Positions 20,272 through 20,757 of a DNA stretch of 27,572 nt are shown one piece after another. The notes under the pieces are model-generated. The model saw nothing but the letters and a program-made list of their open reading frames with translations. It had not been told where the DNA came from and made no database searches. Position 1 is the stretch's first letter. Every line of letters starts with the position of its first letter. The stretch comes from a virus: the UHGV virus genome UHGV-1358942. One strand, 5' to 3'. Position numbers and translations under genes: made by a program.

Positions 20272-20757
20272 CTACCTGATATTACTGCTACTGTTGCATG
20301 TTACCGTGTTTCCAAATCCTGAATTGCAGTTTGTATATGTGTCAACGCGTGTTGGGTAAGGTTGAGTTATAACAGGCTGGCGAGCTTTTTGTTCGATCGC
20401 TTGCATTGTGTTTACAGCCTGATAATTCAATAAAGCCTGCTGGAATGCTTGGCTTTGTGCTATTTGTTGGGCTTGTTCTTGGCTTTGTAATTGAACATAA
20501 AGATTCTGAAGCTCAAGCCTTGCCTGTGCATCACTTATCTTGCCTTCATCGACACCTTGCCCGAGCATCTTCGCAGCAAGGACATACAGCTTAGGTGTTG
20601 GTGCTGATGCCATGCGTGAGTCGTTCTTCACGCTGGCATCAAGGCAATTAGCCATATCGCTAAGCTTTTGATAGCGTTGTTCGCAACTTGCTTGATAGTC
20701 ACTTACTTTTGCGCATCCAACCAGTAGAAGCGGGATAATTAACAGTGATTTTTTCAT
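20272..20757 (-). CDS. Predicted outer-membrane lipoprotein (moron; candidate superinfection-exclusion factor)
   Basis: AAGGAGAG RBS 9 nt upstream of ATG 20757. Signal peptide MKKSLLIIPLLLVGC with lipobox and Ala at +2; Gln-rich predicted helical middle; Cys-containing C-terminus. The ORF-track start at 20793 is an upstream extension. Confidence 0.6.
   Translation of the reverse strand: MKKSLLIIPLLLVGCAKVSDYQASCEQRYQKLSDMANCLDASVKNDSRMASAPTPKLYVLAAKMLGQGVDEGKISDAQARLELQNLYVQLQSQEQAQQIAQSQAFQQALLNYQAVNTMQAIEQKARQPVITQPYPTRVDTYTNCNSGFGNTVTCNSSSNIR

What the first reader, a model, noticed from the sequence alone, without database searches (positions are those of the whole stretch)
20272..20757. 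Minus-strand lipoprotein moron at the sieA/immI position
This 161 aa protein is encoded opposite to all surrounding virion genes, a hallmark of lysogenic-conversion morons. It has a canonical lipobox (LLLVGC) with Ala at +2, predicting outer-membrane sorting, then a Gln-rich helical region and a C-terminal domain with four Cys. I do not recognise the family. By position and architecture it is a candidate superinfection-exclusion or receptor-masking lipoprotein, analogous in role to Cor/Llp-type proteins.
Basis: inference. Interest (0 to 1): 0.55.

Follow-up and report, generated by a model that had tools for sequence, protein, structure and literature searches.

The report
Uncharacterised prophage lipoprotein in sieA slot
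A real, highly conserved lipoprotein gene of unknown function sits in a P22-like prophage exactly where phage P22 keeps its superinfection-exclusion gene sieA; it is switched on in lysogens and is a good but untested candidate for a new phage-exclusion or envelope-fitness factor.

Summary
The ORF is real: window 20272..20757 (-), 161 aa, with an AAGGAG ribosome-binding site, a signal peptide, lipobox LVGC and Ala at +2. The window is a P22-like (Lederbergvirus) prophage, and the gene lies 14 bp past the last ejection-protein gene (gp16), convergent with it. That is the slot, orientation and size of P22 sieA.

It is not SieA. There is no sequence similarity and only one hydrophobic segment. Neither SieA type A nor B occurs in any of about 96 loci that carry it. 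It belongs to PHROG 6067 (unknown function), with no Pfam, NCBIfam or PADLOC family.

Close homologues always sit between gp16 and the tailspike in P22-like prophages of at least 10 enterobacterial genera, and in 186 of 5426 complete E. coli genomes. The protein stays 97-100% identical (dN/dS about 0.01-0.1) while neighbouring gp16, gp20, gp7 and mnt types change.

Published RNA-seq for the 97.5% identical Gally orthologue shows transcription in the lysogen, up to about 70-fold above the silent adjacent gp16 gene.

Function is untested. Periplasmic superinfection exclusion is the best guess (about 0.45).

The parts
20272..20757 (-). Lipoprotein CDS, 161 aa plus stop; family PHROG 6067
   Evidence: ORF listing and sequence. 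phrog_6067 matches full length at E = 1.6e-110. RefSeq calls the same CDS. dN/dS is 0.01-0.1.
20713..20757 (-). Signal peptide with lipobox (MKKSLLIIPLLLVG-C15); Ala16 at +2
   Evidence: Read from the sequence. Cys15 is invariant or nearly so in alignments A1, A2 and A5. A lipobox is present in 220 of 239 homologues and none has Asp at +2.
20533..20712 (-). N-terminal helical head domain (aa 16-75) with invariant C25 and C38
   Evidence: AF2 helices 18-28, 32-45, 47-51 and 53-70, with block-mean pLDDT 75 for residues 11-20 and 94-98 from residue 21. This is the most conserved region of the wider family; Q22, C25, C38, Y58 and A79 are invariant or nearly so.
20383..20532 (-). 50-residue Gln-rich helix (aa 76-125), a predicted stalk
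20344..20382 (-). Pro-rich linker (aa 126-138)
   Evidence: No secondary structure and lower pLDDT (70-86) in the AF2 model. It is the least conserved region.
20275..20343 (-). C-terminal beta-hairpin (aa 139-161) with C144 and C154, motif T-x-C-x3-G-N-x3-C
   Evidence: AF2 strands 139-146 and 152-159. A Cys-x(5-22)-Cys loop at the extreme C-terminus is found in 197 of 239 homologues.
20768..20773 (-). Shine-Dalgarno AAGGAG, with 10 nt between it and the ATG
   Evidence: Read from the sequence. It is conserved in most upstream contexts.
20784..20792 (-). Promoter-like extended -10 element (TG-a-TATCCT); inferred, not mapped
   Evidence: The block CATG(A/G/C)TATCCTG is kept in four different upstream contexts whose homology ends just 5' of it. 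The consensus scan did not call it. The alternative upstream ATG at 20793 lies inside this element.
20828..21127 (-). Context: Mnt/Arc-type ribbon-helix-helix repressor gene, co-directional and 70 bp upstream; no arc or ant partner in this window
   Evidence: Pfam Arc at 1.1e-14 and Repressor_Mnt at 3.9e-12. No Arc or Ant hits in the window.
18410..20257 (+). Context: ejection protein gp16, 74% identical to P22 gp16, convergent; its stop is 14 bp from the lipoprotein stop
21168..23381 (+). Context: tailspike with the P22 head-binding domain
   Evidence: Pfam Head_binding at 4.8e-65.

Best explanation
The gene encodes a prophage-expressed lipoprotein. It is made with a Sec/SPase II signal, lipidated on Cys15 and, having Ala rather than Asp at +2, sorted by Lol to the inner leaflet of the outer membrane.

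From that anchor a small disulfide-stabilised helical head (C25-C38), a helix of about 75 Angstrom and a C-terminal disulfide beta-hairpin (C144-C154) project into the periplasm.

It is a self-contained module that replaces sieA in the gp16-tailspike accessory slot of P22-like prophages. Its most likely job is superinfection exclusion: interfering in the periplasm with DNA delivery by incoming (probably P22-like) phages.

Because its sequence is almost invariant while the linked ejection proteins gp16, gp20 and gp7 switch between unrelated types, any target is more likely a conserved host envelope component or a conserved virion part than the variable ejection proteins.

Shown: the gene is real, the lipoprotein signature, the locus, mutual exclusivity with SieA, purifying selection, and lysogen transcription of the orthologue. 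Inferred: outer-membrane location, the disulfides, the stalk geometry, the promoter and the exclusion function itself.
For: 1. Lipoprotein signature and conservation.
2. Same slot, orientation and size as P22 sieA. P22 sieA is at 13336..13830 (-), 22 bp after gene 16, with its own promoter; here the gap is 14 bp after gp16.
3. Every close homologue examined lies between gp16 and the tailspike, with or without mnt between, in P22-like prophages or phages of Escherichia, Salmonella, Proteus, Providencia, Morganella, Yersinia, Tatumella and Serratia.
4. Mutual exclusivity with SieA. There is no tblastn hit for SieA type A or B in about 96 lipoprotein loci, although types A and B detect each other at 1e-18 to 1e-20. 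No ORF with 3 or more transmembrane segments lies between the tailspike and the lipoprotein gene. None of the 5 lipoprotein phages is among the 41 SieA phage records, out of 152 gp7-bearing records.
5. Leavitt et al. 2024 (PMC10883804) report that only 22 of 66 P22-like phages have sieA, so other occupants of the slot are expected.
6. Lysogen expression of the orthologue GALLYPH_13. In LB it is 4.5x the prophage median. Its log2 fpkm is 6.0-6.3 in LB, 7.9-8.2 in conditions B1/B6, 10.3 in macrophages at 1 h and 8.5-8.7 at 6 h. The adjacent gp16 gene stays at 3.6-4.2.
7. Strong purifying selection, and independence from the flanking mosaic types.
8. Distant homologues are cargo of other mobile elements: two serine-recombinase plus primase elements (one beside RM, AIPR and TIR genes), an integrase plus DUF3987 satellite-like island, and a phage-like contig.
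Against: - No functional test exists, and no homology to any known exclusion or defence protein: PADLOC has no hit and the Cor PHROG matches only the signal peptide.
- Positional replacement of sieA shows only that the slot tolerates different cargo. The same interval also carries a PEGA-like lipoprotein, a small secreted protein and immI genes.
- Extreme sequence conservation is not what an arms race with variable ejection proteins would predict, although P22 SieA is equally conserved (at least 99% in 40 of 41 records).
- Induction in macrophages and culture medium fits a host-fitness role equally well.
- At least one distant homologue is in a chromosomal housekeeping-type neighbourhood.
- The expression data come from an orthologue whose upstream region differs from that of the window.
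Confidence: 0.45

Rival explanations
1. Host-fitness or virulence lipoprotein, with a role like lambda Bor/Iss or plasmid TraT. The outer-membrane-anchored protein would strengthen or modify the envelope of the lysogen (serum, antimicrobial-peptide or intracellular stress resistance) and would have no direct effect on phages.
For: - The orthologue GALLYPH_13 is induced about 16-fold in macrophages at 1 h relative to LB, and is still up at 6 h (log2FC 2.55, q = 4.7e-27).
- The gene is carried by pathotypes: EHEC O26, O104:H4 C227-11 and AIEC LF82.
- Very strong purifying selection independent of the linked ejection-protein types fits a conserved host target.
- A distant homologue lies in a housekeeping-type chromosomal neighbourhood.
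Against: - All five rightmost Gally genes, including mnt and the tailspike, rise together in macrophages, so the induction looks regional rather than specific.
- There is no similarity to Bor, TraT or any characterised envelope-stress lipoprotein.
- The gene is confined to one slot of one phage type in Enterobacterales, and is mutually exclusive with an exclusion gene there.
Confidence: 0.25
2. A phage life-cycle accessory rather than a lysogenic-conversion gene. For example, it could prevent progeny from re-adsorbing or ejecting into debris or outer-membrane vesicles after lysis (the role proposed for T5 Llp), or modulate the envelope for lysis or release. It would be expressed with mnt from the immI region.
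For: - In the window it is co-directional with mnt and 70 bp downstream of it.
- In some loci it lies in an apparent operon behind other small secreted or membrane proteins.
- Its position next to the DNA-delivery genes.
Against: - It is transcribed in the uninduced lysogen while the late genes are silent.
- In Yersinia and Morganella prophages there is no mnt at all, and in Gally an oppositely oriented gene separates it from mnt, so it is not tied to immI.
- It is on the opposite strand to the late operon.
Confidence: 0.1
3. A highly diverged SieA: the same protein family as P22 SieA, working in the inner membrane.
For: Same slot, same strand and almost the same length, 161 versus 164 aa.
Against: - BLASTP finds no alignment even at E <= 100.
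- SieA types A and B have three hydrophobic segments on the same scale that gives this protein one, and that one is the signal peptide. Leavitt et al. report three (type A) or four (types B and C) predicted transmembrane segments.
- The conserved SieA motif FxRYPxEAxxFNK is absent from this sequence.
- The lipobox and non-Asp +2 predict an outer-membrane lipoprotein.
Confidence: 0.01

Closest known systems
P22 SieA (types A, B and C; Leavitt et al. 2024, PMC10883804)
   Same: Identical genomic slot: immediately after and convergent with gene 16, before mnt and the tailspike. Similar size. P22 sieA has its own annotated promoter, and a promoter-like element lies upstream here. SieA is prophage-expressed, and the Gally orthologue of this gene is transcribed in the lysogen. 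Near-invariant sequence across mosaic phages, and never found together.
   Different: No sequence similarity. SieA is an integral inner-membrane protein with 3-4 transmembrane segments and no signal sequence. This protein is a lipobox lipoprotein with one cleavable hydrophobic segment, predicted to be anchored in the outer membrane. SieA function is demonstrated; this one is not.
Cor (phi80/N15/HK022) and Llp (T5) outer-membrane lipoproteins that block FhuA
   Same: Small phage-encoded lipoproteins with a non-Asp +2 residue, acting at the envelope. This description of Cor and Llp is from established knowledge and was not tested here.
   Different: The only match to the Cor PHROG (phrog_1119) is residues 1-31, the signal peptide, at E = 0.035. 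This protein is more than twice their size and has a helical head, stalk and hairpin architecture. Its carriers are O-antigen-binding podoviruses, not FhuA-dependent siphoviruses. No receptor is known.
Lambda Bor/Iss and F-plasmid TraT (lysogen- or plasmid-expressed outer-membrane lipoproteins giving serum resistance or surface exclusion)
   Same: A lipoprotein encoded by a mobile element and expressed from the resident element. The orthologue is induced under host-like conditions.
   Different: No Pfam or NCBIfam hit to Lambda_Bor or TraT families for this protein or for 25 diverse relatives. The predicted fold is different.
T4 Spackle (periplasmic, helical, disulfide-bonded inhibitor of the incoming tail lysozyme). 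Recalled from knowledge as a mechanistic analogue only.
   Same: A small, mostly helical, disulfide-containing periplasmic protein made by the resident phage. It suggests a way a periplasmic protein can block entry through a conserved virion enzyme.
Braun's lipoprotein Lpp
   Different: The match is to a generic single helix only. There is no sequence similarity and no C-terminal Lys for murein linkage. This protein has an additional helical head and a beta-hairpin.

Membership tests
Bacterial lipoprotein (SPase II substrate; PROSITE PS51257-type rule) | Positively charged n-region, a hydrophobic h-region with no charged residues, and a lipobox [LVI][ASTVI][GAS]C with the Cys within about the first 35 residues | tested here: met
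   The N-terminus is M-K-K, then SLLIIPLL, then L-V-G-C15. Cys15 is invariant or nearly so in A1, A2 and A5. A lipobox is found in 220 of 239 homologues.
Bacterial lipoprotein (SPase II substrate) | Actual lipidation and globomycin-sensitive cleavage | not testable with these tools
   Needs palmitate labelling or globomycin treatment.
Outer-membrane-sorted lipoprotein (Lol pathway, +2 rule of Enterobacterales) | No Asp at +2 (the Lol-avoidance signal) | tested here: met
   Ala16 is at +2. None of the 220 lipobox-bearing homologues has Asp there. Localisation itself is not shown.
PHROG 6067 (unknown function) | Full-length match to the family profile | tested here: met
   E = 1.6e-110, residues 1-161 against profile positions 1-161. 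All 25 diverse relatives in A4 also match it.
SieA (P22 superinfection exclusion A) | Sequence similarity to SieA type A, B or C | tested here: not met
   BLASTP finds no alignment at E <= 100 against P22 SieA. tblastn with types A and B finds nothing at the lipoprotein loci. Type C was not tested directly.
SieA (P22 superinfection exclusion A) | Integral inner-membrane protein with 3-4 transmembrane helices and no signal sequence | tested here: not met
   There is one hydrophobic segment, and it is the signal peptide. SieA types A and B each give three on the same scale. The published description is in PMC10883804.
SieA (P22 superinfection exclusion A) | Conserved cytoplasmic motif FxRYPxEAxxFNK | tested here: not met
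   The motif is described. It is absent from the 161-aa sequence read.
SieA (P22 superinfection exclusion A) | Location between genes 16 and 9 of a P22-like prophage, leftward strand | tested here: met
   This is a shared position, not evidence of homology.
SieA (P22 superinfection exclusion A) | Blocks DNA injection by P22-like phages | not testable with these tools
   Needs plating, K+ efflux and DNA-ejection assays.
Cor superinfection-exclusion lipoproteins (phrog_1119) | Profile match beyond the signal peptide | tested here: not met
   E = 0.035, residues 1-31 only. One of 25 relatives reaches E = 3.7e-4.
Lambda Bor/Iss, TraT and Lpp families (Pfam/NCBIfam models) | Significant profile match | tested here: not met
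   No such hits for the protein or for 25 diverse relatives.
Known anti-phage defence proteins (PADLOC-DB v2) | Profile match | tested here: not met
   No families matched.
Moron (autonomously expressed prophage accessory gene) | Transcribed in the lysogen while neighbouring lytic genes are silent | tested here: met
   This comes from published data for the 97.5% identical orthologue GALLYPH_13. It is 4.5x the prophage median in LB (the paper's cut-off was 5x). It reaches log2 fpkm 10.3 against 3.6-4.2 for the adjacent gp16 gene. It has not been measured for this exact prophage.
Moron (autonomously expressed prophage accessory gene) | Own promoter and terminator | tested here: inconclusive
   A conserved extended -10-like element, TGnTATCCT, lies 26 nt upstream of the ATG in several different contexts, but the consensus scan does not call it and finds no terminator. 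In Gally, Yersinia and Morganella no co-directional gene lies upstream, so a promoter must be there.
Moron (autonomously expressed prophage accessory gene) | Base composition distinct from neighbours | tested here: inconclusive
   GC is 43.8%, against 46.6% for gp16, 42.0% for mnt, 44.9% for the tailspike and 47.7% for the window. The difference is not distinctive.
Moron (autonomously expressed prophage accessory gene) | Dispensable for lytic growth | not testable with these tools
   Indirect support only: most P22-like phage records lack it (5 of 152 gp7-bearing records).

The most novel reading that the evidence does not exclude
The family is a new class of entry-blocking protein. It would be an outer-membrane-anchored lipoprotein whose long helix carries a disulfide beta-hairpin deep into the periplasm, where it jams the trans-envelope DNA-ejection conduit of short-tailed phages, or a conserved host factor that conduit needs, from the outer-membrane side. 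That would complement the inner-membrane block made by SieA. Relatives would be reused as exclusion cargo by satellites and other integrative elements.
Probability: 0.2. Interest if true: 0.7.

Novelty: new variant of a known kind. Interest (0 to 1): 0.45.

Why it matters
Only about a third of P22-like phages carry sieA (22 of 66), and what the others put in that slot has not been studied.

This gene is one of the occupants. It is in 3.4% of complete E. coli genomes, about nine times as many as the HS1-type sieA found by the same kind of search (186 versus 21 genomes). Carriers include EHEC O26, O104:H4 and the Crohn's-associated strain LF82.

It is under tight purifying selection, is switched on in lysogens and further inside macrophages, and has no relative of known structure or function.

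If it excludes phages, it would give a second, outer-membrane-side handle on the poorly understood P22-type DNA-ejection pathway. It would also matter for phage therapy and typing of these pathotypes. If instead it helps the host envelope, it is an overlooked prophage fitness factor: the LF82 study concluded that Gally carries no morons because this gene scored 4.5x against a 5x cut-off.

Tried and rejected
- **Family libraries.** Pfam, NCBIfam and PADLOC scans of the protein and of 25 diverse relatives gave nothing meaningful. The weak hits to GspK, DUF2802, RcsF, TraV and a T6SS-immunity lipoprotein model come from the Gln-rich helix or the signal peptide. One database record named 'GspK' (Cronobacter) probably derives from the same spurious match.
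- **PDB sequence profile search.** Best E = 2.1.
- **SieA homology.** Rejected.
- **Co-variation with ejection proteins.** Rejected: the same 97-100% identical lipoprotein sits next to at least three unrelated gp16 types and varied gp20 and gp7 types.
- **Longer 173-aa start (ATG at 20793).** Rejected. It has no ribosome-binding site, lies inside the promoter-like element, is not conserved in other genera, and RefSeq uses the 161-aa start.
- **Literature.** Searches for the family, and for lipoproteins at this locus, found no characterisation. Casjens & Grose 2016 was not available.
- **Terminator.** No intrinsic terminator was found after the gene.
- **RNA genes.** tRNA and Rfam scans of the window found nothing.
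Full report
**1. Observation**

The window is the late half of a P22-like (Lederbergvirus) prophage. In order it carries:
- the Q antiterminator, lysis genes, Rha, terminase, portal and coat genes;
- the three ejection-protein genes: gp7 (16305-16997), gp20 (17007-18413) and gp16 (18410-20257, 74% identical to P22 gp16);
- two minus-strand genes;
- a tailspike with the P22 head-binding domain (21168-23381);
- an AT3/SGNH acyltransferase pair and an integrase.

The reported ORF is present at 20272..20757 (-), 161 aa. It has AAGGAG with 10 nt between it and the ATG. 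The N-terminus is MKKSLLIIPLLLVGC|AKV: a positively charged n-region, a single hydrophobic segment, lipobox L-V-G-C15 and Ala at +2. RefSeq annotates the same 486-nt CDS in a 98.4% identical E. coli prophage. A longer ORF from the ATG at 20793 is unlikely, for the reasons given under rejected ideas.

There are two in the N-terminal domain (C25, C38) and two in the C-terminal tail (C144, C154), not four in a C-terminal domain. The gene is also co-directional with the mnt-like gene upstream (20828..21127; Pfam Arc and Repressor_Mnt).

**2. The gene is real and constrained**

The word-indexed protein search found 94 homologues in Escherichia, Citrobacter, Serratia, Klebsiella aerogenes, Cronobacter, Yersinia, Pectobacterium, Morganella, Providencia, Tatumella and others. 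All are named 'hypothetical' or 'lipoprotein'. The gene is in 186 of 5426 complete E. coli genomes, including O104:H4 C227-11 and many O26 EHEC strains.

Among 96 copies extracted from fetched loci there are 65 nucleotide alleles but only 39 protein variants. Against the window allele, dS is 0.07-0.39 (up to 0.70 for the most divergent close allele) with dN 0-0.019, so omega is about 0.01-0.1. One example is 15 synonymous and 0 non-synonymous differences.

**3. Where it lives**

P22 sieA lies at 13336..13830 (-), 22 bp beyond gene 16, with its own promoter, and is followed by orf59a, mnt, arc, ant and gene 9. The lipoprotein gene here lies 14 bp beyond gp16, on the same strand as sieA, and is of the same size.

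Every close homologue whose context I read is in the same place:
- phages Gally and Brookers;
- prophages of Y. ruckeri, Morganella and E. coli;
- a Serratia remnant;
- 80 IMG/VR contigs.

Among 50,697 phage records only five carry it, and all are Lederbergvirus.

In the 80 IMG/VR loci the protein is 97-100% identical, while the neighbours vary:
- the adjacent gp16 is of at least three types (one is 34% identical to the window's, and another matches only in part);
- gp20 and gp7 types vary;
- mnt is of two types or absent;
- arc/ant and a PEGA-like lipoprotein gene come and go.

The gene is therefore an independent, conserved module in a mosaic region, and it does not co-vary with the ejection proteins.

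**4. Relation to SieA**

There is no sequence similarity. SieA types A (P22) and B (E. coli HS prophage HS1, fetched) each show three hydrophobic segments on the scale that gives the lipoprotein one, its signal peptide. The SieA motif FxRYPxEAxxFNK is absent.

The two are mutually exclusive:
- tblastn with SieA types A and B finds nothing in any lipoprotein locus, although the two types detect each other at 1e-18 to 1e-20;
- no ORF with 3 or more transmembrane segments lies between the tailspike and the lipoprotein gene;
- of 152 phage records with a gp7 homologue, 41 have SieA and 5 have the lipoprotein, with no overlap.

Leavitt et al. found sieA in only 22 of 66 P22-like phages. In complete E. 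coli genomes the HS1-type sieA gene is found by megablast in 21 genomes, against 186 for the lipoprotein gene. Megablast may miss diverged sieA alleles.

**5. Expression**

The 97.5% identical orthologue is GALLYPH_13 (LF82_138) of prophage Gally in E. coli LF82. The supplementary tables of PMC9928086 give the following:

| Condition | log2 fpkm, two replicates |
|---|---|
| LB overnight (BLB) | 6.29 / 5.96 |
| B1 | 7.87 / 8.15 |
| B6 | 8.02 / 8.22 |
| Macrophage 1 h (MB1) | 10.29 / 10.30 |
| Macrophage 6 h (MB6) | 8.70 / 8.54 |

- In LB the normalised reads are 78.2 and 62.2 (mean 70.2), against a prophage median of 15.6. That is 4.5x, just under the authors' 5x moron cut-off of 78.1.
- The comparison of macrophage 6 h with LB gives log2FC 2.55, q = 4.7e-27.
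- The adjacent gp16 gene stays at 3.6-4.2 in all conditions.

The gene is therefore transcribed in the lysogen independently of the late operon, up to about 70-fold above its neighbour. The paper's statement that Gally carries no moron is a threshold effect.

Two caveats apply. All five rightmost Gally genes rise together in macrophages. Gally's upstream region also differs from the window's.

In Gally an oppositely oriented gene separates the lipoprotein gene from mnt. In Yersinia and Morganella there is no mnt, so a promoter must lie directly upstream.

A conserved block, CATG(A/G/C)TATCCTG, is retained in four different upstream contexts whose homology ends just 5' of it. It reads as an extended -10 (TGnTATCCT) and lies at 20784-20792 in the window. 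This is inference; the consensus scan did not call it. In a few loci homology ends inside the 5' UTR, and the gene follows a small secreted or membrane-protein gene in an apparent operon.

**6. The wider family and predicted structure**

An exhaustive profile search gave 244 cluster representatives at E <= 1e-3 and 95 at E <= 1e-10. Most come from metagenomes and have no names.

They share one architecture:
- a lipobox Cys;
- a helical domain with invariant C25 and C38, and Q22, Y58 and A79 invariant or nearly so;
- a spacer of variable length;
- a C-terminal T-x-C-x3-G-x-x3-C loop at the very end of the protein.

None of 25 diverse members matches any Pfam or NCBIfam family, and all match phrog_6067.

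The sampled contexts of distant members (23-40% identity) are:
- two serine-recombinase plus primase integrative elements, one next to RM, AIPR and TIR genes;
- an integrase plus DUF3987 satellite-like island;
- a phage-like contig with a small terminase subunit;
- one chromosomal housekeeping-type neighbourhood with uvrC, udg, earP and bio genes;
- two unclear contexts.

With a 128-sequence alignment, AF2 gives mean pLDDT 88.8 and pTM 0.62. It predicts helices 18-28, 32-45, 47-51 and 53-70, one 50-residue helix (76-125), a Pro-rich linker, and a beta-hairpin at 139-146 and 152-159.

C25 and C38 sit on adjacent helices, and C144 and C154 on the two hairpin strands. Two local disulfides are therefore likely in the oxidising periplasm; this is inference.

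**7. Interpretation**

Firmly supported: this is a real, strongly constrained, lysogen-transcribed lipoprotein gene. It is predicted to be outer-membrane sorted, it forms an autonomous module, and it occupies the sieA slot of P22-like prophages in place of sieA.

The function is not established. I rank the possibilities as follows.
- **Periplasmic superinfection exclusion, about 0.45.** This rests on position, mutual exclusivity with SieA, the recurrence of relatives as cargo on other mobile elements, and the precedent of phage outer-membrane lipoproteins such as Cor and Llp. Because the protein does not co-vary with gp16, gp20 or gp7, a conserved host envelope factor or a conserved virion component is the more likely target.
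- **Host-fitness lipoprotein, about 0.25.** This is supported by induction in macrophages, carriage by pathotypes and extreme conservation.
- **Lytic-cycle accessory role, about 0.1.**
- **Diverged SieA or spurious ORF.** Both are excluded.

**8. Novelty**

The family is catalogued only as a PHROG of unknown function, and I found no paper that characterises it. It is not a member of the SieA, Cor, Llp, Bor, TraT or Lpp families. It is best described as a new family within the known kind 'prophage-encoded envelope lipoprotein moron'.

Interest is moderate. It is a well-defined, widespread and testable candidate, but there is no evidence yet of a new mechanism.

Noticed in passing
window 23407-25235 (-): Two adjacent low-GC ORFs (36.7% and 38.7% GC): an AT3 acyltransferase (24141..25235, 364 aa) followed by an SGNH domain (23407..24120, 237 aa). 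The pair looks like a split OafA/Oac-type O-antigen acetyltransferase. The SGNH reading frame stays open upstream across the AT3 stop, which suggests a frameshift in a once-fused gene; a Morganella relative has a fused 564-aa AT3-SGNH protein. This DNA is almost absent from complete E. coli genomes (2 partial matches).
   Followed up: partly
window 20828-21127 (-) and 21128-21167: An Mnt/Arc-type repressor gene with no arc or ant partner in the window, ending only 40 bp from the tailspike start. What an orphan Mnt represses here is unclear. In LF82 the Gally mnt is induced 40-fold in macrophages, and its deletion had no phenotype.
   Followed up: no
L001 5447-5866 (-) (Gally GALLYPH_14) and 10 other related loci: A second lipoprotein gene (139 aa as annotated in Gally, lipobox MLSGC, weak PEGA-domain match at E = 0.0037) lies between the studied gene and mnt in 11 loci, divergently oriented. 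In LF82 it is even more highly expressed (log2 fpkm 9.4-11 in the four conditions other than LB). The gp16-tailspike interval seems to collect envelope-directed cargo.
   Followed up: partly
L084 3554-3871 (+) and 7 other loci; L052 5889-6134 and L055 2550-2795: In some prophages the lipoprotein gene is preceded on the same strand by another small gene. In 8 loci this is a 105-aa secreted protein (MKRIAILLLLCLSSIANA|ETK...). In 2 loci it is an 81-aa protein with two transmembrane segments, whose stop codon overlaps the lipoprotein gene's ribosome-binding region. Neither has a Pfam match. These may be operon partners.
   Followed up: partly
PMC9928086 S1 Table (Gally prophage sheet): The paper concludes that Gally carries no morons. 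GALLYPH_13 (mean 70.2) and GALLYPH_14 (mean 51.1) are the most highly expressed genes in the part of the Gally sheet I read (integrase 52.2) in LB. GALLYPH_13 misses the 5x cut-off (78.1) only narrowly, and one replicate (78.2) exceeds it.
   Followed up: yes
L008-L011 (Serratia marcescens, 24 contigs): An 84% identical copy sits in what looks like a prophage remnant or a different element: tailspike, a Bro-N protein, the lipoprotein gene, a 490-aa gp16-family protein, then a DNA polymerase A gene and SNF2-like genes, next to tonB. The lipoprotein gene is retained although most virion genes are absent.
   Followed up: no
window 21600-23381 (+): The receptor-binding part of the tailspike (after the conserved head-binding domain) has no tblastn match in any of the roughly 100 related loci. 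Its best PHROG is a 'colanic acid degradation' tailspike. The host glycan specificity of this prophage is unusual within the set.
   Followed up: no
protein P0093 (E. coli, 167 aa, Pfam ERF): A protein annotated as a recombinase matches the first 47 profile positions of the family (its residues 13-57) and otherwise carries an ERF domain. It may be a chimeric gene call or a recombination junction.
   Followed up: no
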